Position numbers and translations under genes: made by a program
The notes under the pieces: model-generated
Told to the model about the DNA's origin: nothing
The model's database searches: none
The model's input: the letters and a program-made list of their open reading frames with translations, nothing else
Assembly (NCBI GenBank): GCA_046350815.1
Contig: JAXLZO010000001.1
Coordinates: forward strand, 750,001 to 782,000
DNA: 32,000 bases
Source of the DNA: Candidatus Saccharimonadota bacterium
GTDB taxonomy: Bacteria > Patescibacteriota > Gracilibacteria > BD1-5 > UBA2023
Direction: 5' to 3'
Shown: piece after piece, positions 1,887 through 31,938 of the stretch
How positions within the stretch are numbered: the stretch's first letter is position 1
Layout: the number at the start of each line of letters is the position of its first letter

Positions 1887-2639
1887 GGGTCTAAACCAGT
1901 TACGGGTTATATTGACGAAGTAACTTTAGCACTTCCTTATAAATATCTTTTCATTGAATACGACAATTATATCTGAATTCAGATTCTTTCAAAAAATAGT
2001 AGAAGTAGACTTTCTTGATTCCATTGAATTGAGAGAGTCTTCTTTTGGTATAACTCCAAAATGACTCTATTCAATTAATGTGTTGAGTTCATCTTGCAAA
2101 TTCATTTGCTCCGTGATGAACACGGTAGTGTTTCTCATATCCAATATCTACAAGCCCATCATAAGCTCACCATCCATCACTGTTAATCTCAGACTCTTCT
2201 ATACGAAGTTTTCATCGAATGATTGGCACGAGAGTCCTTGCTTTTACATCAGGAACTATCTCAGTATATACTTTTCAGTTTCTTTTGAGTAAACCAAAGA
2301 CTATTGTCTTCATACCAGCTCACCTTCCTCTCTTTCATCGGACTCTTGTTGGTCAGAAGTAACTCTCATCTATCTCAACATTTCCAGTCCATATTTCATT
2401 CTTTTCTCTCTCACAGAGAAAGGCTATCGCCTTTCTGATATATCTATACCAATCCTGTGTTGTTTTTGGATTGAGACCTGTTAATACCGCTGTTTTATCT
2501 GAAGTAAAATCCAGAGAAAAATATTTCACAATTTCTCTTATTTTTGCATCTCAAATTCGTGATTTTTTCCTATAGGTAGTTTTACTGATCATAGAGCCAA
2601 GTTTATGGGATAATTTATCCTGTCAACTGGTTTAGACCC
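1887..2639 (-). mobile_element. compact IS1595-family (ISXO2-like) insertion sequence
   Basis: Perfect 15-bp terminal inverted repeats GGGTCTAAACCAGTT (1887-1901) and AACTGGTTTAGACCC (2625-2639) enclose a single transposase ORF. A 7-bp direct repeat ATCCTTA (1880-1886 and 2640-2646) flanks the element as a target-site duplication. Confidence 0.85.
1900..2592 (-). CDS. IS1595-family DDE transposase (ISXO2-like domain), 230 aa
   Basis: With TGA=Gly the frame is open from ATG 2592 to TAA 1900-1902. Translation contains VEIDESYFGPTRVRGKRGRGAGMKTIVFGLLKRNGKVYTEIVPDV...IIRGKL...DGWGAYDGLVDIGYEKHYRVHHGANEFARGTQHINGIESFWSYTKRRL, the hallmark ISXO2-like motifs. All 10 in-frame TGA fall on glycines conserved in that family. 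Confidence 0.9.
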
Positions 2640-5075: not shown

Positions 5076-6158
5076 CTATTTCCCCGATTTCGTCCTATTG
5101 CAATTCTTACAGAGCATCTGACAGTTTTCAGCCGTTGTTTTCCCTCCCTCGTGCCACGGAGTGATATGATCTGCTTCCATCTCTTGGATTGCAAACTGGA
5201 GGCGACACTTCGTACAGATACCTTGCTGCCGCTCATAGGATTCTCTCTTTTGTTTCTCAGTGAATGCGCGGATACTCAGATATTTCTCATTCCGAGTCAG
5301 GACATATTCGTAGATACCGGACTTTTTCGTGACATCTTCATCTTGCATAAGTTTTGTGATTTCTCCCTCGAGTTCTGCTGCATCGTATTCCTGATCTTTG
5401 AACTGATTATAGAGTATTCACCATCCACCACCTTTCATTTCTCTTCGATAGTTTGGGAACACGGCCCGTACCCAATTGATCACACTCTGAAAGTAGAGCC
5501 AGAGCTCATTCGCATTCGGTTTATGCTGATGAGTCGCCATATATTCCTCGATAGTATCATCACTGATCCATGAGAGAGCTGTCTCAAGATATTCTTGGCG
5601 TATGGGAGATCCATTCAGATAGTCACTTCCGATATTATAGGTAGGACATCATGTCTTGCTGAAGTACCGCTTTGCATCCGTGAGCCATGTTCCCGTATAG
5701 ACAGCATTTCGTAGCTCTTGTTCGGTGAGTTTCTCACCTGCAATATTGATCGTCTTGAACCAATCAAGCTTCTCACGATCATTCCCCTCGCAGATATAGA
5801 CCATGAGTTTATAGCTCAGGATCTGTTCTCTCTCCACATCGGTGAGATTGTGAAAATACTGAAAATCAAGAGAGAAATTCCCACTCACATATTCACAGAT
5901 ACTGATCGTTCGCTGCTGTCCATCGAGTACCTCATAGGTTCCATCTTCATTTTTCACCCAATACATTACATTGAGCGGGAAATCCTTACGAACTGTCTCA
6001 ATCACAGAGTTTCTCTGCTTATCTTTATAGACGAACTCTCGCTGGTACTTCGGGCGAATATTGAGTGCTCCACTATACCCGATCACACCATCTTCTTGAT
6101 TGTTGATATATCCGGCTGCAACTTCACGGATCATGATTTCTTGGAGTTTGATTTTCAT
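5076..6158 (-). CDS. fused DUF262 (ParB/GmrSD-N-like, DGQQR motif) - HNH endonuclease, 360 aa
   Basis: Track ORFs 5649..6158 and 5076..5348 are joined in frame through TGA codons, with the intervening triplets checked. The N-terminus has FPLNVMYWV...YEVLDGQQRTISI (DUF262). The C-terminus has CTKCRLQF...ADHITPWHEGGKTTAENCQMLCKNCNRTK (HNH with CxxC pairs). Stop is TAG 5076-5078. Confidence 0.85.
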
Positions 6159-6167
6159 AGGGGAGAG

Positions 6168-7127
6168 TTAAGAATGTAATTTTTTATTTTGGATAATAAT
6201 GCGAAAATATGGACATTTTCCATTAATACTTAAATCTTTCTCATCGTTGCCTTTGCGAAACTTGATAATCTCAAATTGATCTGGATTAAATTTATCAAGA
6301 AAAGTAATTGGAACACCTATGTGACCTGTATAATCTATTGGAATATCTTTTGTTTTATCTACGTTGATTGCATCGTAGTTGTCATACTTTGGATATTCAC
6401 TTTTATTTTCTCTATAAACTTTATAGAGGATTAAATCTTCATGTCGTTCCTTGTAATCGATATTCGTGAACCAACGAACTCATTTTACTCGAATGTATTT
6501 ATTTCACTCCGCATCGACTCTGCTTCAGGCAGCGAGAAGTGGGTAGTGTTCTGGAACTCTGAATTCTCGATCCCCACTATGAATGCTTTTTCAGAACCAA
6601 ACTCGATTTTCCTGAATGAGTTTGAAAAAATCTTTATACGTTATCGCGTTTTGGTTTCCGATGATGATGAATTTTTTCTCATATTCGAAGAGTTGAGCGA
6701 TATATTCACGAAAGAGTGAAAATGGGGGATTGGTGATGACAATATCTGACTCTTTTAGTATCTCGATACATTCAGGACTTCGGAAGTCACCGTTTTGTTT
6801 GAGTGGAGTTTTCACCGTATCGAGCTTGTTGATTTTTCCATCGCCATTGATATCGGCGATAATCTCGAGCTTGTACGATGGTTTGTCATAGTCAAAATGA
6901 GTCGATACGAGCTTTTTAAGTCCGAGAAATTCAAAATTCTCAGAGAGATATCTCCAGAAGTGACTTTCTTCAGGATCATCACAATTGCAGAAGATAACCT
7001 TGTCTTTAAGATGCTCTTTATAGTTTTGTATCTCTTTCTCGATATCAGATATCTGTGTGTAGAACTCATCATTCTTTCCTCTGATAGCATTATGTAAATT
7101 CCTATTTCAGGACTTCTTTTCGGACAT
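6168..7127 (-). CDS. N6-adenine DNA methyltransferase, EcoRI-methylase-like family, 319 aa
   Basis: ATG 7127 to TAA 6168-6170 in one frame with TGA=Gly. Motifs NDEFYTQISDIEKEI, VIFCNCDDPEESHFW, DIVITNPPFSLFREYI (NPPF catalytic motif), KKFIIIGNQNAITYK and GVPITFLDKFNPDQFEII. The stop lies 9 nt before the DUF262-HNH start. Track ORF 6812..7177(-) is an off-frame shadow. Confidence 0.88.
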
Positions 7128-7360
7128 AAAAAATGGCAATTAAATATAATTGCCGAGTTTTTCGGTGTTGTAAGCAAACAAAAACGGGTGATTTTATCGA
7201 CCTATTCTAGTTTGCTTACAACGAGATTTCCGTAGCTTTTATATAAAAGGACGGGCGGTGATAAAATCACCCGACTTGTTTATAAAAACCACAGAAAAAT
7301 TGTGTTTGAAAATCTCGGTTGTAAGCCCGAGCACTATATTGGAAATACGATTGAAGGCAA
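7128..7360 (-). promoter_or_regulatory. putative promoter plus ~200-nt highly structured 5' leader of the methyltransferase/nuclease operon (candidate cis-regulatory RNA)
   Basis: On the minus strand TTGCCT (7355-7360), 16 nt, then TATAGT (7333-7338). Downstream elements: hairpin CTCGG/CCGAG (7314-7332) with loop TTGTAAGC; 13-bp helix 7168-7180:7210-7222; 14-bp helix 7185-7198:7260-7273 interleaved with it; palindrome CTTTTATATAAAAG (7236-7249); and hairpin GGCAATT/AATTGCC (7134-7153) plus a U-run abutting the ATG. Confidence 0.4.
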
Positions 7361-8022: not shown

Positions 8023-8109
8023 ATACTATAACTCACCTTCAACGCCCCATCTTTCATTTTTATCTTCCGGATTTCCATCGGTCCAAGAAATACGAAACAG
8101 AAACAAAAA

Positions 8110-8131
8110 GAACACCTTCCAAAGGTGTTCT
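8110..8131 (-). terminator. canonical rho-independent terminator
   Basis: On the minus strand GAACACCTTTGGAAGGTGTTC is followed by TTTTTGTTTC. It starts 6 nt after the TGA that ends ORF 8138..8602. Confidence 0.7.
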
Positions 8132-8137
8132 CATTTT

Positions 8138-8602
8138 TCATACTTCCCCCTCCTTCAGTTTACGCAGATAAACTGAGATAAATTGATGATTTTTTGTGGT
8201 GCACCAGTTGGCGATTTGCCAGTACACACCGAACAGAATAATGGAAACACTGACGACCAGCTTGATGGCAGATTGGTCTGATATATGTGGGCTGATCAAT
8301 TCAATTATTATGACCAGAATACCACAAATCATTATGTCGAAAAAGACCATCAACATACGAAGCATACCCATATGATATTGAGTATTCATTCTCATACCTT
8401 CCTCAAGATTTGCTATCGTCGTCTTATTCCCCCAGCAAGCAGCGATCCTCACCGATTCTTCCTCTCCAAGATATGCTTGGAAAGTTTTTTGTGCTCTCTC
8501 CAATACACCTTTCACTCCGATTTGCACTGCTAAGATGAAAACAGCTATGATGATGCCGAATCCAACCATAACCATCCCCACTACCCATTTTTCCACAGTC
8601 AT
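8138..8602 (-). CDS. small multi-pass membrane protein, 154 aa, apparently terminated by TGA (standard-code gene)
   Basis: AGAGGTG lies 5 nt before ATG 8602 (MTVEKWVVGMVMVGFGIIIAV...). There is no in-frame TGA. The ORF ends at TGA 8138-8140, directly followed by a terminator. Under code 25 it would run on 26 codons to TAA 8060-8062. An own promoter-like TTTACA..TATACT lies upstream. Confidence 0.55.
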   Translation of the reverse strand: MTVEKWVVGMVMVGFGIIIAVFILAVQIGVKGVLERAQKTFQAYLGEEESVRIAACWGNKTTIANLEEGMRMNTQYHMGMLRMLMVFFDIMICGILVIIIELISPHISDQSAIKLVVSVSIILFGVYWQIANWCTTKNHQFISVYLRKLKEGEV

Positions 8603-8761
8603 GATACACCTCTTTTTTTGTTTATGACTTCGTATATAGTATATAAATTTCAATATTTGTAAATAATCGAATATACATTCATGATAAAAGCCCCGTTTCC
8701 TTTTGGGATTTGGGGCTTTGATTGTATCGCAAGATGGTCCCTTGCGAGGATTTGTCTGCGA

Positions 8762-9754
8762 TTATTGGTTGAGAAGCTCCAGTAGTCCTTCAGATTCCTG
8801 CAAGAGGTTGCTGAAGAATTTTACATTTCCGTACCAGCTCGGACCGGATGTGCAGGCGATCGCCACACAGTCTTTTTCGAAGTATTTGGCAGCATCGTCG
8901 CCAGAGAAGATCCCGCCGCATCCGACGATATCCATGTGAGCGGTCAGACCATTCATCACCAGCTGATCGATCAGATTCAGGTTATGATGGCGGAGGATTG
9001 TTCCGGAGAGTCCACCGCGGTTGTGCTGTGTACTGCCATCAGGGTTTTTGACGACGAGAGCATCACCGTAGCTGACATTTGGTATGGTGTTGCTCATGAC
9101 GACTGCTTGGATCGTCGTGGCATGTTTGATGAGTGTTTCCGTGAGCTCATCGATGAACCAGTCCGAAACGGTGGGTGTATGGGTGAAATCCAGATGCGGG
9201 TGATCTTCGGCGAACCATGCAAGCTCGCACGGAGACATGTACGGCGACAGTTTCAGCCAGATCGGCTTATCGAATTCAACTTTCTTGATCTCCTCAAGGA
9301 GGTAATCAAGATCATCGATCGCATACGCCACCGGAAGATGCCCGGTATTCGGGCAGCCACCATTGATTTCAACACCTGCGATGCTCTCATTGCCTTTCAG
9401 CATGTTCAGCATTTCGATGTACTCACTCGCCTTGAATCCGGCGATGGAGATGATTATCGGTCGTGTCGGATTGGATGGGAGCAACTTGATTGCTTCGGTG
9501 AGGCCAATGTTCGGCATGCCGAGTGCGTTCAAGCCAAAACCTTCCTGGGTGAGGCGACCAAAATCTTCCGGCCAGACCAAGTTACCTTGATTCCCGAGCC
9601 TTTCCTGTAAAGTGAACGAACCCAACACAACAGCTCCTAACTGTGCATCGGGATGAAGAAATTGCTTTGCTTGAAGCGGATGTTTTGCAACACCGGCACC
9701 AAGAATCAATGGTATCGACATTTTGATACCGCCAACTATGATTTTCTCTGCCAT
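8762..9754 (-). CDS. dihydroorotate-dehydrogenase-family (class-1-like) flavoenzyme, 330 aa
   Basis: Uninterrupted 330-codon ORF with no TGA and stop TAA. GGAG lies 8 nt upstream of the ATG. Motifs GFGLNALGMPNIG, IIISIAG, VEINGGCPNTGH (N-x-x-C-P-N active-site type) and DIVGCGGIFSGDDA are typical of DHOD-like TIM-barrel enzymes. Hand-counted 100-nt samples gave 42% and 56% G+C, against 35% in the methyltransferase gene. Confidence 0.8.
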   Translation of the reverse strand: MAEKIIVGGIKMSIPLILGAGVAKHPLQAKQFLHPDAQLGAVVLGSFTLQERLGNQGNLVWPEDFGRLTQEGFGLNALGMPNIGLTEAIKLLPSNPTRPIIISIAGFKASEYIEMLNMLKGNESIAGVEINGGCPNTGHLPVAYAIDDLDYLLEEIKKVEFDKPIWLKLSPYMSPCELAWFAEDHPHLDFTHTPTVSDWFIDELTETLIKHATTIQAVVMSNTIPNVSYGDALVVKNPDGSTQHNRGGLSGTILRHHNLNLIDQLVMNGLTAHMDIVGCGGIFSGDDAAKYFEKDCVAIACTSGPSWYGNVKFFSNLLQESEGLLELLNQ

Positions 9755-10897: not shown

Positions 10898-12142
10898 CTA
10901 GTGTTTATATGTCCAAGGTACAGAAATCTTTCCTTGTCTCCACTTCCTACATCCATCGAGGGGATCCGAAATATTATTCACCGCAAAATAAAGCTTCACC
11001 CCTCTCCCAAAATTCTCTCGTACTTCCTCAAGTGTAATTCAGAGTTCCTTCATAATCGCTTCATCACTCAAAGTCTCATCAAGGTGCTTCTTCACTCTGA
11101 GAATCGCCCCCATAGGATCTCCTATATTATTCACCGCAAAATGAAGCTTCACCCCTCTCCCAAAATTCTCTCGTACTTCCTCAAGTGTAATTCAGAGTTC
11201 CTTCATAATCGCTTCATCACTCAAGGTCTCATCGAGGTGCTTCTTCACTCTCCGAAGTGCCCCCATAGGATCTGAAATATTCCCAACAGCAAAATGAAGC
11301 TTCATCCTTCTTCCAAAATTCTCTCGTACTTCCTCAAGTGTAATTCAGAGTTCCTTCATAATCGCTTCATCACTCAAAGTCTCATCAAGGTGCTTCTTCA
11401 CTCTCTGAAGCGCCCCCATAGGATCTGAAATATTCCCAACAGCAAAATGAAGCTTCATCCTTCTTCCAAAATTCTCTCGTACTTCCTCAAGTGTAATTCA
11501 GAGTTCCTTCATAATCGCTTCATCACTCAAAGTCTCATCAAGGTGCTTCTTCACTCTCTGAAGCGCCCCCATAGGATCTGAAATATTCCCAACAGTAAAA
11601 TAAAGCTTCACCCTTCTCCCAAAATTCTCTCGTACTTCCTCAAGTGTGATTCCAAGCTCTTGAGCTATCATGGAATCATTTGAGAAGTATTGAGCAATAA
11701 AATCCTCATCCCAGAATTGTGCTATTCTGGAGGTATTTTTCTCATTTTCCATCTTATTTGATCTCATATATAGTCGTATACTCTCATAGTTACAGACAAA
11801 TGCTTCATAGAGAGCCGTAGCATCCTCAGAAGAAAGTTCTGATTTGGTATACTTCTTATATTTTTTACAAAAATCTTGAAAAGCTTCTCTCATTTCACTC
11901 TCTATTTCCTCTTGTTTTCCTTTCATCCAAGAGACACTCTGAAAAGAGTGTTTATGAATAATTCATTGAACATCTGCTTGTATCTTTGGAAGATTTCATC
12001 CATTCGGTTTTCCTTGCTCAGTATTTTCTCTCATACCCTCTCGCATAGCTTCTTGAGAGGTGTGGAGTGCCCTCATTGCTTCTTGTTTTTGATCGAGTAT
12101 ATTTGTCTCTCCTTGGGAGACAGGTGCATTGTTGGCATTCAT
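10898..12142 (-). CDS. tandem-repeat protein with five 51-aa HTH-like modules, 414 aa
   Basis: One frame is open from ATG 12142 to TAG 10898-10900, with all triplets 10898-12190 checked. Track ORF 11498..11926 is the middle piece. The repeat unit is ELGITLEEVRENFGRRxKLxFAVGNISDPMGALQRVKKHLDETLSDEAIMK. Confidence 0.75.
10961..11659. repeat. tandem direct repeat, period 153 bp, about 4.6 copies, coding
   Basis: The landmark AAAATTCTCTCGTACTTCCTCAAGTGT recurs at 11009, 11162, 11315, 11468 and 11621, an exact 153-bp spacing. The copies are near-identical. Confidence 0.9.
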
Positions 12143-19794: not shown

Positions 19795-20664
19795 TTACAA
19801 ACTTCACTGTTCGTTATTTAATTTCCGAGCAAGATTTTGGAGATCATGGTAGCTCATTCATCCAGAATAGTACGTTTTGATTTCATTTTGTAAGCTAGGA
19901 TCAATACGGTTAGAGCTCTTCTTAAGCCTCTGAAAAATCAAAAATATCTCGTATAATATTGCTCCATAAGATGGATTGGTATTTGTGTCTTGTGTAGAAT
20001 AGATATTCTCTTTTTGCCAGTCGTCAAACATGAGTCAATATCGAAAAAGAATTTCATCTAGTTTGTCATTTTCTTGAATGGTTTTGAGCATAAACTCATT
20101 TGCCTGAAGGTGTATGAGTTGTTGATCTGGTGGAAGATCTTTCCACCAATCTTGTGATATGGTGCTTATGTATCATTCGGGATTATACTGCTGAATAGCG
20201 ATAAAGACTTGATAATGTTCATACACTTTTTTGAGTGTGATGCGAGTACTATCAAATGGGGAAGCAGAAAGGTATATCTGAAAGTCTGGCAGTGCTTCAA
20301 AATATTCAAAAAAATCTGGAGATATGCAAAACAGGGATTCTATTTTTTGTATTTCTTTTATTCTTGTGAGAAGGATTCATTCATTGATACCACGAGAGGC
20401 ATTGTATTGGTACCATGGCATACTCATGAGACGTGTACGCAGGGTTGTATCCGATCGAATGATAGCATTAATTTCGGATGAGTCATATCACTGATGAAGT
20501 GAAGAGGAGATTTTCTCTCGAATATCTTTTCGGATCGGATGCGGATTAGTTTGTGTTTTTGAATATTCTGATCTCTCTCTATCTGCTTCGTACGTCTTTG
20601 ACCCTGTATAGAGGAGTGTTGCAGATAGACCAAGATTCAATACTATCACTCCTTTCTTAAGCAT
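19795..20664 (-). CDS. hypothetical membrane-anchored/secreted protein, 289 aa
   Basis: The frame from ATG 20664 to TAA 19795-19797 was checked across all 290 triplets, with only TGA interruptions. Hydrophobic N-terminus MLKKGVIVLNLGLSATLLY. Track ORF 20424..20633(-) is in a different frame and was rejected. Confidence 0.6.
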
Positions 20665-20788
20665 ATATCAATATAATGAACTGATATTGATATATCATAT
20701 TCAAGAGAAAAATCAACTTTCTATTTGAAAAAATATTTTTTTATAGATAATAAATGTATACGAATCCAAGAAAGAAGGGGGTTGGAGT

Positions 20789-21151
20789 ATGGTTATTCGA
20801 CAGATGCTTAAATCGGCAGCCAGCAAGCTGCTCAGGACGGACAATGATAGTGAAGAGAGCGAAGACATCGTCACTCATTGTGCGTGGTGTGGTAAGGAGA
20901 TTCATGAGGGTGATCGCATTACCCTCTTCACGGATCAGGCCATGTCACCGCGATTGCCCATGGCCAATACAGTTTTGTGGCGACGAATAACACCATATAG
21001 TGCTATCTACGTGGGGTGTACTCGTCCATCGTGCTGTGAAAGCAGCACGGATGCATGTGCTACATGGACACATCAGCAAGTCATGGTTGATGTATATCGA
21101 GGAGAATCTTCATGCCACACCATGACGTCTGCAAGTGCTCGCAAGGAATAG
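20789..21151 (+). CDS. Cys-rich hypothetical protein, 120 aa (GC-richer, SD-led)
   Basis: GAAGGGGG lies 8 nt upstream of ATG 20789. No in-frame TGA; stop TAG 21149-21151. A hand-counted 100-nt sample is 49% G+C. A CxxC (HCAWCGKE) is followed by further Cys residues. A terminator follows. Confidence 0.55.
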   Translation: MVIRQMLKSAASKLLRTDNDSEESEDIVTHCAWCGKEIHEGDRITLFTDQAMSPRLPMANTVLWRRITPYSAIYVGCTRPSCCESSTDACATWTHQQVMVDVYRGESSCHTMTSASARKE

Positions 21152-25875: not shown

Positions 25876-26838
25876 ATGAAGAATTTTTTTATACAGGAGA
25901 AAATACAATCATCTTGATGGCAAGCTATTCATATAGCATCCCCCGAATGAGTTGCCACAAAAATTGCCTCGATACGTGAGAATGCACTTGCGGTCATTAC
26001 GGATTTTGACCGTACAATGACGACTCACTTGGTTAATGAGGAAGAGCGACCATCACTCATATCAACTCTACGATCACATAATATTCTCAGTGAAGAGTAT
26101 AGTGCCGCTGCTTATGCAATCTTTAATCATTTTAATCCTATTGAAATAGATACAAGTCGTACTATAGAAGATAGGTCTCATGAGATGGATATTTGGTGGC
26201 ATGCCCATCTTGATCTCTTGACAGGGAAGATGACGTATACTTAACTCAAGCAATTGACCGGAAAATCACTCCCGCATACTGGATCTGATGAAGATTTGAT
26301 ACCAGTTGAGCTCCGAGTGGATCACATCGATCAAGCAATTAATTCGGGTATTATTGAACTACGTCCTCGAATGTGAGAATTCCTCGATCTTCTTGAGCGA
26401 GAATCGACACCACTTATTATTTTCTCCGCAAGTGGACTTGGTGGTGATTCTATTCGATCCTATCTTGAATTTCACCATCAATTCAAACCAAATATTCATG
26501 TGGTATCAAATACCTTTACATGGAATGAAGATGGAGTTGCAAATGGTCGATTGGAATCAGTAATCCATGTTTTTAACAAAGAAATAGGAGCTATTCGATC
26601 ACAACCAGAGGTATATAATTTTATTCGTTCGAAGAGAGATATTATTCTTCTGGGTGATTCCACGGGTGATTCACATATGGCAGATGGTTATGATGCTGAT
26701 ACGGTCCTCAAGATCGGATTTCTTACCAAGAATCCCGAGAAAAATCTACGAGAATATATGCAAAAGTTTGATATTGTTCTCGTGGGGGATGGTGATATGG
26801 GCGTGGTGGTAGATATTTTGAAAAATCTCCAAAAATAA
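25876..26838 (+). pseudogene. pyrimidine 5'-nucleotidase (UMPH-1/HAD family) with a single in-frame TAA
   Basis: Frame 1 from ATG 25876 to TAA 26836-26838, checked triplet by triplet. Motifs AVITDFDRTMT (HAD motif I), IEID...DIWWHAHLDLL, PLIIFSASGLG, IHVFNK, ILLGDSTGDSHMADG and LKIGFL...FDIVLVGD parallel human NT5C3. TAA at 26242-26244 separates motif I from motifs II-IV. Confidence 0.65.
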
Positions 26839-26962: not shown

Positions 26963-27751
26963 ATGCATCGTGAACTTATTTTCCTATTTTCTCCTATGTC
27001 TCATATAGAACTCTCTAAGCTCAATACACGAGCTCCTGATAATGTCGATCGTAATGAAATTGAAGCAGAATTTGAACAAATCCGTGAAGAAATTATAGAG
27101 CTACAACAAAAATTCTATGCTGATGGACGTCATTCGCTTCTCATCGTGCTCCAAGGTATGGATGCATCTGGTAAGGATGGCACTGTACGCCATGTGTTCT
27201 ACGGAGTCAACCCGCTCGGTATTCGAGTGTATCCATATGGTAAGCCAACCGATGAAGAAGCAAAACATGATTTTCTCTGGCGACTGCACGTGAATACTCC
27301 AAAGAAAGGTATGATCTCTATATTCAATCGCTCCTACTACGAGGATATTCTTGTGCCAACCGTTGAAGGGTATATTGAAAAGGATATCATCGAGCGTCGC
27401 TATGATCATATCAACAACTTTGAAGAAATGCTTCGTGACAATGGTACTATTGTATTAAAGTTCTTCCTTCATATGTCCAAAGATATGCAACGCGAACGTC
27501 TCGATGAGCGAATGGAAGAGAGGAAGAAGAATTGGAAGCATCATGCTTCTGATGAAGTGGTTCGTAAAAAATGGGAAGACTATATGGAAGTCTACGAAGA
27601 CGTATTCAAGAAGACAAATACAAAACATGCTCCATGGCATATCATCCCAACAGATGATAAGTGGTACAAAGTTTATCTCGTTGCGAAGACGATCCGTGAT
27701 ACACTCAAAGATCTCGATCTTGAGTGGCCAGAGCTCAGTGATGCGGTATAA
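26963..27751 (+). CDS. ppk2: polyphosphate kinase 2 family protein (polyphosphate:nucleotide phosphotransferase), 262 aa
   Basis: Intact ORF in the track. Motifs LLIVLQGMDASGKDGTVRHVF (Walker A type), DFLWRLH, ISIFNRSYYEDILV, LKFFLHMSKDMQRERL and APWHIIPTDDKW. An extended -10 like TGGTAAAAT lies at 26923-26931. The start could instead be ATG 26996. Confidence 0.88.
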   Translation: MHRELIFLFSPMSHIELSKLNTRAPDNVDRNEIEAEFEQIREEIIELQQKFYADGRHSLLIVLQGMDASGKDGTVRHVFYGVNPLGIRVYPYGKPTDEEAKHDFLWRLHVNTPKKGMISIFNRSYYEDILVPTVEGYIEKDIIERRYDHINNFEEMLRDNGTIVLKFFLHMSKDMQRERLDERMEERKKNWKHHASDEVVRKKWEDYMEVYEDVFKKTNTKHAPWHIIPTDDKWYKVYLVAKTIRDTLKDLDLEWPELSDAV

Positions 27752-27794: not shown

Positions 27795-29960
27795 CTACGC
27801 TGCTTTCGCCATTGATTCCATAGTTGGATTTGGTGTATGCAATATGTGTATGATTTCATTACGTGGTATGCTTGATACGAGTGGCTGCCTGAACACTTCT
27901 GCTATTATATCTGGATTGAGTGTATGTATTGGAGATCCAAGAGATTCTGTTCTATGAGGAGTCTGCTTTGTGGTAATCTGTGCTAAGACATCCCCATATT
28001 TCCATTGTTTTGATGGCAAGAGTTTCCATTCTCATGTTGTGCGTGATTCTTCAAATATATATCCAGTGAGTTTTCCCTCATGGAGAGCATAGAAAGCTAT
28101 ATGATCATTTTTTGCTCCATCCATAGCACGCACTCTGTTACTGAGATAGACAAGACTGCCATTACCAAGGTCAATTTTTGTAGTAGGTGTAAATCTGGAG
28201 ATATTTTTGATTCGCTCTGCAATAGGGTCAGATCGCATATTGTTGATATCTTTTTGTACAAAATAGGGACTCATAGTATGACCGATATATCATCGTCAAA
28301 ATAATTCTCTCTGAGCAATAGTATCTGTAAATGCATCAAGTTCCTCGAGAAATGTATGGGTGTTTGTGTTTTTGTAGGTGGTGCCATTATTACGAAGTTG
28401 ACGAACAATGCCACGAATTTCATATTCGAGTACATCCCAGGCTTCTTTTTTCATTAATTCGCGAAGAGCTTCTACTTTCTCTACACGTAATTCGGGATTT
28501 TTTTCAAGTATGGCATCAAATGCATCGATAGCCCGTCGTGCATTTGTCCTCCAGCGTTCTTGTTTATAAGGTTCTTGCTTTGTTTTTAGCTTGTTTGAGG
28601 GTTTATTTACTGGTGGATCAACTTTTTTTGGATCTGTATTTTCTGGTATTTGTTGAGGTTTAACGATGATTGTTTTGAGTCGTTCTGTGACAATATCCGA
28701 TGAGAGATTAGTATCTTCTTGTATCTCTTTTGGGGATGACTTCTTCTGAAAAAAGTCTGTGAATTTTTGACGCCAGGTTTTTTGTGGTTCTCTCTGATAC
28801 GTGTCCTCTTGGATATTCGGCTTTTTGAGAGGATCTGTTCCAACTCTCGGATCGTCTACTTCTCATCGAATCTCTTCAAGATTTTCACGGAGTCGCTCAC
28901 GAGCATCATTCGCTGATCATTTTTTAGCGAAGAATTTCTTGCTCCATCATACAATACGATCGAACCCATGAGAGATCGAGCGTGGTAGGGTCTTTATTTT
29001 CTTGCGAAAGGTTATACCGAGTCATGCGAGGACAAGCCAGTATGCACTCAGTGAAAGATCATGAGTTATGGTCTGTGTGAAATGCACGTCACTGGATATA
29101 TGTGCTCCTTGTTTTCCCTCGAGATGGTCTGAGAGAAATTTGTCTGTCTCTTGTGAGAACTTTTTCCCAAGATGATGTTCTCGTATGAGGTTTTTTGTCG
29201 TTGTTTTTACTTGTTTTGCATATGTCTCAAGTTGTGATTGTTCTGCGTCGGTGAGTGTGTTTGTTTTGGGTGTGTCTATTAATATGGTTATTTTTTCTTG
29301 ATGATTCGTATCGAGGAGATCGCGTATATACTGTCCACGATTTGCAGCGAGAGAACTATTCTTTGCTTGATCTCATATAAAAGATGCGCTCCCAGTAATA
29401 TTGCTAGTTCGACCATCGATACGTTGTGCTATCTTAGGTTCGGTAAAGATCGAGACAAGTTTTGCAACACCCTCAGGATTGAGAATATTATTCTGTGCTT
29501 GTTGTGATAGATCAGAGCGAAGCTGTTGAGATATCTCCTCCTTGAAGCTATTGATATCTTGTTGGATAGTTTCTTGCTGTTCCTGAGTTATATCTATCTT
29601 ATATACTGGAGCGTGAGGCATCTTGATAAATGACTCATGATGTGATGTTTGTTGATTTTTTACCTCGGATTGATAGTGAATTCTTGCTCACAAAATCTCC
29701 TCGATATCAGAGAGATCAAGTTCTCAGCCATCGCGGTCTACTATACTCCATTCACTAGATGAAGATACATGGCTTCCATAATGAGTATTAGATTCATTTG
29801 AGAGAGCATTTGCCCCTCCGGCAATCATACCCATAGCAAGAATTGCTTTGGTATTCTTTTTGACGGTCTCAGCAATTTTGTGAGTGCCCTTCTGGAGTGA
29901 TGCTAGGGATGGTGCAATTTTTGTTTGAATACGATTATATATTCACGATTTCAATTTCAT
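27795..29960 (-). CDS. large hypothetical protein with one central TM segment, 721 aa
   Basis: Track ORFs 29373..29621, 28032..28274 and 27795..28019 share a frame. All triplets from 30026 to 27795 were translated: TAA at 30024-30026, ATG at 29960, only TGA in between, and TAG at 27795-27797. Track ORF 28607..28843(-) is off-frame. No recognisable domain. Confidence 0.65.
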
Positions 29961-30124
29961 ATCATTTTTAGGACTGTAAATATAGTTGATACATATGTTT
30001 TGTCAATATTTCTTCGGTATTTTTTAGATGGTGGATATTTTCTCTGTGATTATTGGCTTGACTTGTTGCACCTTTTTTCTATGATATCGGTCCCTTCCAT
30101 TGAGAATAAAAAAAGGAGCTCAAT

Positions 30125-30517
30125 ATGAGCGTGATATTTACACTTGAAACGACAGGAATTTCCCAAGGGGATGCTGAGGAGATACTCAGGGAGTTCCATC
30201 AGACGATTGTCTCTCATGCTCAGTCTCTGGGTACGGGCTCTACTATTGTCATCAAGGGGCTTCGATTTCAACGCACAGGTGAACTGCAGATGTCGCCGAT
30301 CAACTTGCTTCGGTCTTCTTCGTTTTTCTCACAAGATTCATATTGTGGAGAATCCATCATGACGAATCTTGATGTGCAAATTATAGCTGAGACACTTCGG
30401 GAAATTCTTGTTTATCACCATGCACTTGGTGGTGGTTGGATCAAGATTGTCGGACAGGAACCATTTAAAAAAGGTGCCGGTTGGCTTCTCTACGAGTCAT
30501 CACCATCGGTGCTGTGA
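30125..30517 (+). CDS. hypothetical protein, 130 aa, SD-led and apparently TGA-terminated (standard-code gene)
   Basis: A perfect AAGGAG lies 7 nt before ATG 30125. Thirteen Gly codons, none of them TGA. It ends at TGA 30515-30517, followed 16 nt later by a terminator. A 100-nt sample is 46% G+C. Confidence 0.5.
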   Translation: MSVIFTLETTGISQGDAEEILREFHQTIVSHAQSLGTGSTIVIKGLRFQRTGELQMSPINLLRSSSFFSQDSYCGESIMTNLDVQIIAETLREILVYHHALGGGWIKIVGQEPFKKGAGWLLYESSPSVL

Positions 30518-30533
30518 AATTTGGTTTCGAGTC

Positions 30534-30570
30534 AATCCCACCGCTTGTGGTGGGATTTTTCTTTGTTTTC
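30534..30570 (+). terminator. canonical rho-independent terminator
   Basis: AATCCCACC GCTTGT GGTGGGATT followed by TTTCTTTGTTTT. Confidence 0.7.
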
Positions 30571-30607
30571 GCTATACTGAGAGTATATCCCTTACCTACT
30601 TTTCTCT

Positions 30608-31516
30608 ATGGCAAAGACATTTCTTCCCTACGCATATCTTCGTGGAGAATTCCTCCCATTCCAAGATGCTCATATTTCAATCGCTACCCATGCTCTTCAC
30701 TATGGTACTGCTGCATTTTGAGGAATACGAGTAGCAATTACGGATGAGTGAAATGCACTCTTCTTTCGTCTCGATGATCATGCAAAGCGACTCTCTCGCA
30801 GTGCTCATTATCTTGGGTATGAAATTGATCCTGATTTTATACGATCGCGTCTCATAGAGTTCGTTCAAATGAACAAGCCAACCACTTCTATCTACATTCG
30901 GCCTCTCGTCTACACGAGTGACCTCGATATTAGTCCGAGACTTCATAATATCGAGAAAGATTTTCTCATCTACGGTATCGAGCTTGGTGACTATCTCAGT
31001 GCAGATGGAGTGAGTGCGACGATCAGTTCTTGGGTTCGCCAGAGTGATGCATCGTTTCCACTGCGTGCGAAGATCTCTGGTGGTTATATCACGAGTGCTC
31101 TTGCTAAGAGTGAAGCGGTTGAGCGATGATTTGACGAAGCGCTCATGATGAACTCAGCTGGTAAACTCTCCGAAGGAAGTGGAATGAATGTATTTCTTGT
31201 TCGTGATGGCACCATTATCACTCCTGGAGTTACTGAGGATATTCTTGAGGGGATCACTCGATCGAGCGTGATGAGTATTGCACGACATCTCGGATATGAG
31301 GTGGTTGAGCGAAGTGTGGATAAGAGTGAGCTTTTTATCGCTGATGAGGTTTTCTTGACTGGTACGGCCGCTCGCATTACCCCAATTCATAAGATTGAAC
31401 AGTATCATCTTCCGAGTGATCGTCCGGTTTTCTCAACGATTAAGTCCTATATGAATACTATTTTCAATCAGGAAGCGACCCCATTTTCTCATTGGATCGA
31501 AGAAGTGAAAATCTAG
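30608..31516 (+). CDS. ilvE: branched-chain amino acid aminotransferase (fold-type IV PLP enzyme), 302 aa
   Basis: ATG 30608 to TAG 31514-31516. Track ORFs 30869..31129 and 31145..31516 are in frame. Motifs HYGTAAF[TGA]GIRV, IYIRPLVY, RAKISGGYITSALAKSEAVER[TGA]FDEALMM, SEGSGMNVFLV, PG..ILEGITR and DEVFLTGTAA parallel E. coli IlvE. Confidence 0.9.
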
Positions 31517-31603
31517 AAGATTTTGGGGTTGCATAAATTCCGCTCTGTTGGAGGTGTGCTCGTAGGGCTGGGTGGTTTTATTTGTATCGTATCGAAAAAG
31601 AAG

Positions 31604-31635
31604 ATCCTGAATCAAGTTCAGGATGACGATTTTTT
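31604..31635 (+). terminator. possible intrinsic terminator after ilvE
   Basis: ATCCTGAA TCAAG TTCAGGAT, then GACGATTTTTT. Confidence 0.5.
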
Positions 31636-31760: not shown

Positions 31761-31938
31761 ATGACAGTTTTTCCCACTCTGTCATTCCCGCGGAGGCGGG
31801 AATCTCGTTGATGGATGGTAGAATCAAGAGGAAATCTCAGTAGTAGATCCCCGCCTCCGCGAGGATGACAAATTAAATTAATAGGAGGATGATAGAGGAT
31901 GACATATTTGATACGAGAAAGCCCCCTCAATGAGGGGG
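31761..31938. repeat. cluster of GC-rich palindromic (REP-like) elements
   Basis: GTCATTCCCGCGGAGGCGGGAATCT (31781-31805) has an inverted near-copy AGATCCCCGCCTCCGCGAGGATGAC (31845-31869), and each has an internal CCCGC..GCGGG hairpin. Also ATGACAG..CTGTCAT (31761-31785) and CCCCCTCA A TGAGGGGG (31922-31938). Translated, they give the SRLRGND-type pseudo-ORF seen in track ORF 31733..31999(-). Confidence 0.6.

What the first reader, a model, noticed from the sequence alone, without database searches (positions are those of the whole stretch)
30100..31516. Islet 3: a TGA-terminated foreign-looking ORF that code 25 would fuse in frame to ilvE
Seen: ORF 30125..30517 has a perfect AAGGAG SD, 13 glycines none encoded by TGA, and about 46% G+C. 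It ends at TGA 30515-30517 followed by a strong terminator (30534-30570). It lies in the same frame as ilvE (ATG 30608), and the 90-nt spacer contains only one further TGA and no TAA or TAG. Under the host's own code the reading frame is therefore uninterrupted from 30125 to 31516. Inference: either ribosomes read through and make an N-terminally extended IlvE fusion from any transcript escaping the terminator, or the terminator is what keeps the two products apart. This is a concrete, testable consequence of moving a gene across a genetic-code boundary.
Basis: partly seen in the sequence, partly recalled or inferred. Interest (0 to 1): 0.7.

Follow-up and report, generated by a model that had tools for sequence, protein, structure and literature searches.

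The report
TGA-ended orphan gene upstream of ilvE
A small, real but uncharacterised gene in a Gracilibacteria genome (where TGA means glycine) still ends with TGA, so on paper it runs straight into the next gene, ilvE. Relatives show that this fusion is an accident of one lineage, but the whole gene family oddly behaves as if TGA were still a stop.

Summary
ORF 30125-30517 has an AAGGAG Shine-Dalgarno (SD) site and 13 glycines, none coded by TGA. It ends in TGA, a strong terminator follows, and it shares its frame with ilvE, with no TAA or TAG before 31514.

The window comes from an NCBI 'Candidatus Gracilibacteria bacterium' MAG that uses code 25. The ORF is a genuine gene under purifying selection (dN/dS 0.09-0.25). 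It belongs to an orphan family found only upstream of ilvE in related code-25 genomes, as six divergent allele classes. It is a self-contained cassette of promoter, SD, ORF and 3'UTR (about 30008-30533), and recombination swaps it as a unit.

The in-frame fusion is not conserved. Other alleles stop after 8 or about 19 extra codons, or run out of frame into ilvE. One allele has TAA exactly where the others have TGA. So the protein's real end is at about residue 130, and the fusion is incidental to this lineage.

The unexpected part is that no allele ever uses TGA for glycine (0 of 45 class-collapsed Gly sites, against 17-20% in neighbouring genes). Five of six classes keep TGA at the stop position, and this is the only gene in the window with a strong SD. 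Most likely this is a standard-code relic that is tolerated, but residual or conditional stop function of TGA is not excluded. The protein's function is unknown.

The parts
29979..30006 (-). Promoter-like site (TTGACA-16-TATATT, 11 of 12) for the divergently transcribed 721-aa orphan gene (27795-29960). It marks the left edge of the swappable cassette.
   Evidence: The conserved flank ends at window 30007 in the comparison with L015.
30008..30533 (+). Swappable cassette: promoter, 5'UTR with SD, ORF and 3'UTR. In lineage E it is replaced as a block by a 42%-identical allele, while the flanks stay 97.4% and 91.2% identical.
   Evidence: blastn breakpoints 30007 and 30534.
30058..30085 (+). Sigma-70-like promoter TTGACT-16-TATGAT for the ORF. 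The -35 TTGACT is kept in alleles A, B, C, D and F. Allele E has TTGACA-17-TACAAT.
30113..30118 (+). Shine-Dalgarno AAGGAG, 6 nt before the ATG. It is the only strong SD among 26 genes in the window, and it is kept in all six allele classes (allele C has AAAGGGGT).
30125..30514 (+). 130-codon ORF from an orphan family. It is under purifying selection, has no TGA sense codon, and is predicted to fold as alpha-beta-beta-alpha-beta-beta.
   Evidence: (dN/dS 0.09-0.25).
30515..30517 (+). TGA at the family's stop position. Allele E has TAA at the homologous position. Under code 25 it is read as Gly.
30534..30570 (+). Intrinsic terminator: hairpin AATCCCACC-GCTTGT-GGTGGGATT plus a T tract. The core CCCACCGC...GGTGGG is invariant in all lineages, the loop varies, and there is one compensatory base-pair change.
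30573..30578 (+). Conserved -10-like hexamer (TATACT here, TATAAT in B, C, F and A3), a possible ilvE promoter element. In the TATAAT variants it supplies the in-frame TAA that ends the read-through tail. Here TATACT followed by GA gives the second in-frame TGA (30578-30580).
   Evidence: No full sigma-70 promoter was called here.
30608..31516 (+). ilvE, a class IV branched-chain aminotransferase of 302 aa. It has three TGA (Gly) codons and no SD. It is identical to NCBI MFO0763986.1.
   Evidence: (Aminotran_4, E=2e-47).

Best explanation
The 130-codon ORF is a real, lineage-restricted small protein gene. It sits in its own expression cassette (sigma-70-type promoter, strong SD, ORF, short 3'UTR), placed between a divergent neighbour promoter and the terminator that precedes ilvE. 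The family's true C-terminus is at about residue 128-130, and that position holds a stop-type codon in every allele: TGA in five allele classes and TAA in one.

The host reads TGA as glycine, and according to the literature has no RF2. Its ribosomes should therefore overshoot the ancestral end. How far they go depends only on where the next TAA or TAG happens to lie:
- 8 codons in allele B.
- About 19 codons in alleles C and A3, ending in the TATAAT box.
- Out of frame into ilvE in alleles D and F.
- In frame into ilvE in this genome and its closest relatives, because the spacer is 90 nt and its -10-like box reads TATACT rather than TATAAT.

The intrinsic terminator is what normally separates the two products. 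Transcripts that end there carry no in-frame stop, so the ribosome runs off the 3' end and must be rescued. Only read-through transcripts could yield the 463-aa ORF-IlvE fusion. IlvE itself is probably made from ATG 30608, like the other SD-less genes of this genome.

The fusion is therefore an incidental, tolerated by-product and not a designed protein. The standard-code features of the cassette are read here as the legacy of an origin under the standard code that selection has not erased.

Shown: the anatomy, the coding status, the code of the host, the conservation pattern, the cassette swapping and the lineage-specificity of the fusion. Inferred: read-through at TGA, non-stop rescue, the efficiency of the terminator and the origin of the cassette.
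For: - Anatomy.
- Code 25: long ORFs need TGA to be sense. About 20% of Gly codons in the window are TGA. GGN and TGA swap in ilvE between lineages. The source is an NCBI Gracilibacteria MAG annotated with TGA read through.
- RF2 is absent from BD1-5 genomes (PMC6851277). Proteomics showed UGA read as Gly and found no peptide unique to a UGA-stop reading (PMC4032931).
- Real gene: dN/dS is 0.09-0.25, with codon-patterned substitutions.
- Family and synteny.
- True C-terminus: allele E ends ...YESPPL-TAA and allele F ends ...YESPPL-TGA, with a near-identical 3'UTR. Conservation stops at this codon in all alleles.
- Variable tails and frames.
- The terminator is conserved in all lineages.
- PGAP annotated IlvE as the 302-aa protein. 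The 463-aa fusion is not in the protein collection.
- An engineered analogue exists. In RF1-deleted recoded E. coli, genes ending in the unassigned stop are resolved by suppression, frameshifting and tmRNA/ArfA/ArfB rescue (PMC6207430).
Against: A pure relic should decay, but three features have persisted across allele classes whose synonymous sites are saturated (dS >2).
1. TGA is kept at the stop position in five of six classes, although the one or two codons before it vary and carry indels.
2. There is not one TGA among 45 class-collapsed Gly sites, 18 of which are GGA, one step from TGA. Over less divergence, the adjacent ilvE and PPK2 do gain and lose TGA.
3. The SD is kept in a genome whose other genes lack one.

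A gene whose terminated transcripts mostly lack a stop codon (A, A2, D, F, probably C and A3) would be expected to be poorly expressed. Yet it is under clear purifying selection. None of the expression steps has been observed.
Confidence: 0.6

Rival explanations
1. TGA keeps a stop-like function at the end of this gene. One version is context-dependent termination or ribosome release at a UGA placed 15-27 nt before a terminator hairpin and the mRNA 3' end. Another is termination only under some condition, such as depletion of tRNA-Gly(UCA) or an RF2 brought in by an invading element. On this view the family is selected to be readable under standard-code rules.
For: - TGA or TAA sits at the homologous stop position in all six allele classes, with a direct TAA/TGA swap between E and F.
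- No sense TGA in 45 class-collapsed Gly sites, while neighbouring genes turn TGA over.
- Purifying selection holds even though most alleles would give non-stop mRNAs under strict code 25.
Against: - prfB was not found in any BD1-5 genome (PMC6851277), and RF2 loss is described as a hallmark of such reassignments (gTranslate preprint).
- BD1-5 proteomics found no peptide unique to the UGA-stop reading (PMC4032931).
- ilvE, 90 nt downstream, uses TGA as Gly at conserved positions.
- TGA usage varies widely between genes in the window (0-60% of Gly). At the lowest native rate, 7.6%, the avoidance has P of only 0.03.
- Only about three independent 3'-end types carry the TGA.
Confidence: 0.1
2. 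The ORF-IlvE fusion is a functional, selected product: an N-terminally extended aminotransferase created by the code change.
For: The frame is open and shared in three sampled sub-lineages: window/L001-5, L018 (NCBI GCA_964536125.1) and L019.
Against: - A close sub-lineage (A3, L022) has a TAA in the spacer. Alleles B and C stop before ilvE, and D, E and F are out of frame.
- The spacer peptide is not conserved. It is simply the terminator and the -10-like box translated.
- A strong, conserved terminator lies inside the supposed coding region.
- The ORF and ilvE have discordant phylogenies.
Confidence: 0.03
3. The ORF is a long leader whose translation controls ilvE by attenuation. Ribosomes that read through TGA enter the hairpin and block termination, so ilvE transcription depends on decoding at the TGA.
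For: - A promoter, a translated ORF and a terminator lie directly upstream of a branched-chain amino acid gene.
- No full promoter was called between the terminator and ilvE.
- The TGA lies 15-27 nt before the hairpin in all TGA alleles.
Against: - At 130 codons under purifying selection over its whole length, it is not a leader peptide, and there is no run of Ile/Val/Leu codons near the end.
- Allele E has TAA 25 nt before the hairpin, and allele B has TAA immediately before it.
- There is no Rfam leader or T-box match. The best hit scores 27 bits against a threshold of 55.
- A conserved -10-like box follows the terminator.
- Sensing Gly-tRNA has no obvious logic for ilvE.
Confidence: 0.07
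4. The gene was recently transferred from a standard-code donor, and its TGA stop, SD and lack of TGA codons simply have not had time to change.
For: - It is TGA-free and has a strong SD.
- G+C (45.8%) and GC3 (0.43) are slightly raised, and its codon-usage fit is below average.
- The window does hold a clear recent import, the DHO_dh-like gene at 8762-9754 (50.5% G+C, 0 of 32 Gly as TGA).
Against: - There are six allele classes at 37-78% amino-acid identity with saturated dS. All lie in code-25 genomes at the same locus.
- No homologue was found anywhere else.
- G+C matches the neighbouring native ilvE (44.4%).
Confidence: 0.05
5. The ORF is not a gene. It is either a chance open frame or a conserved RNA leader.
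For: It has no Pfam, NCBIfam, PHROG or PADLOC match, and it appears to be unannotated in the NCBI record.
Against: - dN/dS is 0.09-0.25, with third-position and synonymous Arg (AGG/CGT) changes.
- The start, SD and length are conserved in six allele classes.
- The AlphaFold model reaches pLDDT 72.9 from only six sequences.
- There is no Rfam family match.
Confidence: 0.02

Closest known systems
Genes ending in a stop codon that the host no longer recognises, as in the RF1-deleted recoded E. coli of Ma et al. 2018 (PMC6207430)
   Same: A gene ends in a codon for which the host has no release factor. The outcome is read-through to the next stop, or arrival at the mRNA 3' end followed by ribosome rescue. 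The arrangement is discussed as a barrier to gene transfer across codes.
   Different: - There the codon is unassigned, whereas here it is assigned to Gly by a dedicated tRNA.
- That case is engineered and acute. This one is natural, chromosomal, and has been kept under purifying selection through deep allelic divergence.
- No expression data exist for this case.
Phages of Gracilibacteria and Absconditabacteria that are compatible with code 11 (PMC10746230)
   Same: Genetic elements associated with code-25 hosts whose genes lack in-frame TGA.
   Different: Those phages are reported to rely on stop codons other than TGA, so they read the same under both codes. This cassette uses TGA at the stop position in five of six allele classes, so it reads correctly only under the standard code. 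It is also chromosomal, and no relative was found in IMG/VR.
Context-dependent stop codons in eukaryotes (ciliates such as Condylostoma; Blastocrithidia nonstop, PMC12153298)
   Same: This would be the analogue if TGA acts as sense inside genes but as stop next to the mRNA 3' end.
   Different: Those are eukaryotic systems that retain a release factor able to read the codon. Code-25 bacteria are reported to lack RF2. Nothing here shows termination at TGA. This is a resemblance only, drawn from my own knowledge and one abstract.
Phage 'morons' and other autonomous promoter-ORF-terminator modules
   Same: It is a self-contained transcription unit with its own promoter, SD and terminator. Its expression signals differ from those of its neighbours, and it is exchanged as a block.
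   Different: There is no prophage context and no viral homologue. The terminator belongs to the conserved flank and not to the swapped block.
Histidine-kinase HATPase_c domain, C-terminal half
   Same: There is a short motif resemblance, TGIS-x-DA-x-(I/L)-x-EF, to the G1/F-box region of a Planctomycetia kinase.
   Different: - No Pfam hit in any of the five alleles scanned.
- No PDB sequence hit.
- hhalign gives 64% probability over only 34 columns.
- Foldseek finds no GHKL-fold match.

It is not a member on present evidence.

Membership tests
Code-25 (UGA=Gly) genome, Gracilibacteria/BD1-5 | In-frame TGA in conserved genes at positions that are Gly or GGN in relatives | tested here: met
   ilvE columns 13, 38 and 190 alternate between TGA and GGA/GGG/GGT among lineages. 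Columns 48 and 174 are TGA in all. About 20% of Gly codons in the window are TGA. The NCBI record names the organism Candidatus Gracilibacteria bacterium.
Code-25 (UGA=Gly) genome, Gracilibacteria/BD1-5 | Absence of prfB (RF2) and presence of tRNA-Gly(UCA) | not testable with these tools
   Only 32 kb of the 1.28-Mb contig is available, and the only tRNA in the window is tRNA-Gln. The absence of prfB rests on the literature (PMC6851277).
Protein-coding gene under selection | dN/dS well below 1 and a conserved start, length and frame among homologues | tested here: met
   dN/dS is 0.09-0.25 for all unsaturated pairs. Six allele classes are 128-141 aa long.
Rho-independent (intrinsic) terminator | G+C-rich hairpin directly followed by a T tract, conserved in relatives | tested here: met
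   A 10-pair stem plus TTTTCTTTGTTTT. It is part of the MFE fold. The stem core is invariant, the loop varies, and there is one compensatory pair in six lineages. Activity was not measured.
Translational fusion / bifunctional ORF-IlvE protein | Shared frame and absence of stops conserved among relatives, with linker sequence under selection | tested here: not met
   In frame only in window/L001-5, L018 and L019. A stop or a frame shift is present in A3, B, C, D, E and F.
Leader-peptide attenuator or T-box of branched-chain amino acid operons | Short leader ORF rich in regulatory codons, or a T-box RNA fold upstream of the terminator | tested here: not met
   The ORF is 130 codons and is constrained along its whole length. 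No Rfam match reaches threshold in 29900-30700.
HATPase_c (GHKL ATPase) domain | Profile match to PF02518, with N, G1, F and G2 boxes and the Bergerat fold | tested here: not met
   No Pfam hit at E<=10 in five alleles. The PDB profile search found nothing relevant. hhalign gives only a 34-column partial match at 64%. Foldseek finds no GHKL hit.
Recently transferred foreign gene | Close homologues in other taxa, and atypical composition relative to neighbours | tested here: not met
   No homologue outside this locus in code-25 genomes. G+C is 45.8% against 44.4% for ilvE. Codon fit is low but within range.
Known anti-phage defence or phage protein families | Match to a PADLOC or PHROG profile | tested here: not met
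   PADLOC gave no hit for alleles A, E and F. PHROGs gave only E=0.06 and 0.28.
Class IV aminotransferase (downstream gene ilvE) | Pfam Aminotran_4 above the gathering score | tested here: met
   PF01063, E=2.1e-47, 162 bits against a cut-off of 28.5. NCBI names it a branched-chain amino acid transaminase.

The most novel reading that the evidence does not exclude
The cassette is under selection to be read by standard-code rules inside a code-25 bacterium. Three versions are possible:
- UGA still ends translation in a special context, next to the hairpin and the mRNA 3' end.
- The gene yields its correct 130-aa product only when UGA termination is restored, for example by an invading element that brings an RF2 or removes tRNA-Gly(UCA). 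That would make it a sensor of a 'code switch'.
- The gene is meant to be expressed in the standard-code host cell of this presumed episymbiont.

Any of these would explain why the family never uses TGA for Gly, keeps TGA or TAA at the stop position, keeps a canonical promoter and SD that its neighbours lack, and is shuffled as divergent alleles.
Probability: 0.08. Interest if true: 0.9.

Novelty: new variant of a known kind. Interest (0 to 1): 0.5.

Why it matters
Code-25 bacteria are assumed to read every UGA as glycine. Little is documented about what becomes of genes that still end in UGA.

This locus is a natural, well-delimited test case. It is a selected gene whose stop position is UGA in most alleles and UAA in one. 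It lies next to a terminator, and in one lineage it is in frame with an enzyme gene. A single proteomic or ribosome-profiling experiment could tell apart read-through, fusion, ribosome rescue and termination.

- If UGA is simply read through, the locus shows how much C-terminal 'overshoot', and even non-stop translation, selection tolerates after a code change.
- If UGA is not read through, code 25 is not absolute.

The case also shows that standard annotation misses such genes. Under code 25 the ORF merges with ilvE and appears to be unannotated in the NCBI record. Under code 11 ilvE is broken into fragments.

Tried and rejected
- **Function by sequence.** Pfam, NCBIfam, PHROGs and PADLOC gave nothing, and a PDB profile search gave nothing.
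- **Function by structure.** The first AlphaFold model, from 5 sequences, had pLDDT 46 and was not searched. The second, from 6 sequences, had pLDDT 72.9, but Foldseek found nothing with E<0.07 in PDB or BFVD. The top PDB hit, the immunity protein EsaG, had E=0.13 and TM 0.22, which is not meaningful.
- **HATPase_c lead.** This came from the single GTDB hit, L010, the C-terminus of a Planctomycetia histidine kinase. Only a 34-column motif match supports it, so it was dropped.
- **T-box or riboswitch leader.** No Rfam match reached threshold.
- **Phage origin.** There was no hit in IMG/VR.
- **tRNA-Gly(UCA) or tmRNA near the locus.** None was found in the window or in related loci.
- **A second example in the window.** Gene 8060-8653 has a single TGA followed by a 25-aa tail. 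It has no homologues outside its own cluster, so its true end cannot be judged.
- **A general excess of TGA near gene ends.** Among the 25 other genes in the window nothing is evident, and the sample is too small.
- **Co-variation with the 721-aa neighbour.** They vary independently: A against E changes only the ORF, and A against B changes only the neighbour. A toxin-immunity style pairing is therefore not supported.
Full report
**1. The observation.**
- The ORF runs from ATG 30125 to TGA 30515-30517 and encodes 130 aa. Its 13 glycines are coded by GGT (7), GGA (3), GGG (2) and GGC (1), and none by TGA. G+C is 45.8%, against 39.5% for the window.
- AAGGAG lies at 30113-30118, 6 nt before the ATG.
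- A 10-pair hairpin at 30534-30557 is followed by TTTTCTTTGTTTT, and it forms in the minimum-free-energy fold.
- The ilvE ATG at 30608 is 161 codons downstream of 30125, in the same frame. The only stop-type codons in that frame before TAG 31514 are five TGAs, at 30515, 30578, 30719, 30749 and 31127. Under code 25 the frame is 463 codons long.
- I add a sigma-70-like promoter, TTGACT-16-TATGAT, at 30058-30085.

**2. The host and its code.**
- Long ORFs throughout the window need TGA to be a sense codon. About 20% of Gly codons in 26 gene models are TGA, and all other genes end in TAA or TAG.
- Exact-sequence look-ups place the window in an NCBI MAG named 'Candidatus Gracilibacteria bacterium', on a contig of 1,283,673 bp. 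IlvE is MFO0763986.1 (302 aa), PPK2 is MFO0763984.1, and the DHO_dh-like protein is MFO0763970.1 (U0518_03900). The neighbouring U0518_03895 is annotated with its TGA read through.
- Only one accession lies between PPK2 and IlvE, which I take to be the 721-aa gene, so the 130-aa ORF appears to be unannotated. This is an inference. The 463-aa fusion sequence is not in the protein collection.
- Direct evidence for TGA=Gly comes from the ilvE orthologues. Three Gly columns alternate between TGA and GGA/GGG/GGT among lineages, and two columns are TGA in all of them.
- The literature reports no prfB in any BD1-5 genome (PMC6851277). Proteomics showed UGA read as Gly and found no peptide unique to a UGA-stop reading (PMC4032931).

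**3. What the ORF is.**
- It matches no family in Pfam, NCBIfam, PHROGs or PADLOC and no PDB sequence.
- It does have homologues. Searches of 5.8 billion clusters and 1.84 billion representatives, plus metagenome contigs, returned six allele classes:
  - A: the window, with sub-lineages A2 (L018/L019) and A3 (L022).
  - B: 77-79% identical.
  - C: 60%.
  - D: 59%.
  - F: 58%.
  - E: 42% (BLASTP 38%).
- Every copy lies in the same place: after the divergent promoter of a large orphan gene and before the same terminator and ilvE. In every one of those genomes ilvE contains in-frame TGA.
- Nothing was found in IMG/VR. The only GTDB hit was a chance-level motif match to a histidine-kinase C-terminus.
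- The substitution pattern is that of a protein under purifying selection. dN/dS is 0.09-0.25 for the unsaturated pairs, and the three deepest classes are saturated at synonymous sites.
- With six sequences AlphaFold gives a moderately confident alpha-beta-beta-alpha-beta-beta model (pLDDT 72.9). Foldseek finds no significant relative in PDB or BFVD.
- The protein is real, and its function is unknown.

**4. A swappable cassette.**
- Lineage E is 97.4% identical to the window up to position 30007 and 91.2% identical from 30534 onward. Between those points blastn finds no similarity (alignments).
- The left break abuts the -35 of the neighbour's promoter (30006-29979). The right break is the first base of the terminator hairpin.
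- The ORF tree, (A,B), (C,D), F, E, disagrees with the ilvE tree, in which A pairs with E (dS 0.33) and B with C (dS 0.30).
- E and F share a 3' end although their ORF bodies differ.
- The unit of promoter, SD, ORF and 3'UTR is therefore exchanged by recombination among related genomes. The 721-aa neighbour is also replaced in lineage B, but independently of the ORF.

**5. The fusion is incidental.** Under code 25 the sequence after the terminal TGA differs by allele:
- B: 8 codons, then TAA just before the hairpin.
- C and A3: about 19 codons, ending at a TAA supplied by a TATAAT box after the T tract.
- D and F: out of frame into ilvE.
- E: a genuine TAA at the stop position.
- A and A2 only: in frame into ilvE, because the spacer is 90 nt and the box reads TATACT.

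The tail peptides are just translations of the terminator in whichever frame applies. The terminator itself is highly conserved: the stem core is invariant, the loop is variable, and there is one compensatory pair. Transcripts ending at the terminator would lack an in-frame stop in A, A2, D and F, and probably in C and A3. That inference assumes release within the T tract.

**6. The unexplained part.** Conservation of the protein ends at the same codon in all alleles, and that codon is TGA in five classes and TAA in one. E and F differ there by a single transition within otherwise near-identical sequence.
- No allele contains a sense TGA. After collapsing related alleles this is 0 of 45 Gly sites, 18 of which are GGA, one mutation from TGA. 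P is 4e-5 to 2e-4 at the local usage of 17-20%. Fisher tests give P=0.0015 against ilvE and 5e-5 against the window.
- Over less divergence, ilvE shows three gains or losses of TGA. PPK2, which is TGA-free here, has a TGA in L018 and L022.
- The ORF is also the only one of 26 genes with a strong SD. The SD and a canonical promoter are kept in all allele classes.
- Taken together, the family evolves as if it were read under the standard code.

Three caveats apply. TGA usage is very uneven among genes in the window, and at the lowest native rate (7.6%, PNPase) P is only 0.03. The terminal TGA sits in about three independent 3'-end types, and the last 10 nt or so of the 3'UTR are shared with the flank. 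No expression data exist.

**7. Explanation chosen.** I consider it most likely (about 0.6) that this is a standard-code-style gene end stranded in a code-25 genome. On this view the TGA is read as Gly and the overshoot is tolerated. The terminator keeps the ORF and IlvE apart on most transcripts, ribosome rescue deals with stop-less transcripts, and the fusion arises only from read-through transcripts in this lineage. The engineered analogue is RF1-deleted E. coli, where genes ending in the orphaned stop are resolved by suppression, frameshifting and tmRNA/ArfA/ArfB rescue (PMC6207430).

The rivals are:
- Residual or conditional stop function of UGA, or selection for standard-code readability (about 0.1 in total).
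- An attenuator role (0.07).
- Recent transfer (0.05).
- A functional fusion (0.03).
- Not a gene (0.02).

**8. Comparison with what is known, and novelty.**
- Code-11-compatible phages of Gracilibacteria also avoid in-frame TGA, but they are reported to use other stops (PMC10746230). This cassette does the opposite at its end.
- Context-dependent stops are known in some eukaryotes (PMC12153298 and my own knowledge), but they depend on a release factor that code-25 bacteria reportedly lack.
- I rate this a new variant of a known kind: a gene that ends in a reassigned stop codon, unusual for its persistence, its standard-code features and its allelic shuffling.
- Interest is moderate at 0.5. 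The fusion itself is a curiosity. The family-wide pattern is a genuine anomaly, and the peptides and end-mapping experiments listed under next steps can test it.

Noticed in passing
window 8762-9754 (-): A DHO_dh-like gene of 330 aa (Pfam PF01180, E=1e-29) with 50.5% G+C and GC3 of 0.58. None of its 32 Gly codons is TGA, it has the worst codon-usage fit in the window, and it ends in TAA. It is a clear candidate for recent import from a standard-code donor. NCBI lists it as U0518_03900.
   Followed up: partly
window 8060-8653 (-): Hypothetical membrane protein U0518_03895. It has a single TGA at codon 172, followed by a 25-aa tail, and its codon usage is atypical. It may be a second case of a TGA at an old stop position, but it has no homologues outside its own cluster, so this cannot be judged.
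   Followed up: partly
window 26963-27751 (+); L018 58-846; L022 1-629: The PPK2 gene is TGA-free in the window but carries one in-frame TGA in closely related lineages. TGA Gly codons are therefore gained or lost on short timescales in this clade.
   Followed up: yes
window 27795-29960 (-): A 721-aa orphan protein with 11 TGA codons and no Pfam or PADLOC match, transcribed divergently from the ORF. In lineage B it is replaced by unrelated sequence, yet it is 97% identical in lineage E. It is a second, independently variable segment next to the cassette.
   Followed up: partly
window 10962-11652, inside ORF 10898-12142 (-): A tandem repeat of 4.5 copies of 153 bp (94% matches). It encodes repeated 51-aa units (ELGITLEEVRENFGRR...) in a 414-aa protein, and each unit contains a TGA Gly codon.
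   Followed up: no
window 1900-2592 (-): An IS1595-family transposase (PF12762) in which 10 of 20 Gly codons are TGA. This mobile element is fully adapted to code 25, in contrast to the TGA-free cassette.
   Followed up: no
window 5076-7139 (-): A GmrSD_N+HNH endonuclease (only 2 of 23 Gly codons are TGA; GC3 0.48) sits next to an EcoRI-type adenine methyltransferase. This looks like a restriction/defence pair that may be of foreign origin.
   Followed up: no
window 20789-21151 (+): A 120-aa, Cys-rich, TGA-free ORF preceded by AAGGGGG and ending in TAG. It lies just upstream of the PNPase gene and overlaps a doubtful minus-strand ORF (19795-20967) in which 13 of 21 Gly codons would be TGA. It has no Pfam match.
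   Followed up: no
window 31780-31805 / 31845-31870 and 31600-31633: A 26-nt G+C-rich inverted repeat (88% complementary) and other short elements lie downstream of ilvE. Pieces recur at about 90% identity downstream of ilvE in lineages B and C, so they may be conserved small structured or repeat elements.
   Followed up: no
window 25876-26244 and 26254-26838 (+): A UMPH-1-like (pyrimidine 5'-nucleotidase) gene appears split into two ORFs by a TAA. It may be a pseudogene or a two-part gene.
   Followed up: no
window, all 26 gene starts: Apart from the 130-aa ORF, essentially no gene in the window has a recognisable Shine-Dalgarno sequence. Weak partial matches occur mainly before the TGA-free genes, PPK2 and the DHO_dh-like gene.
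   Followed up: partly
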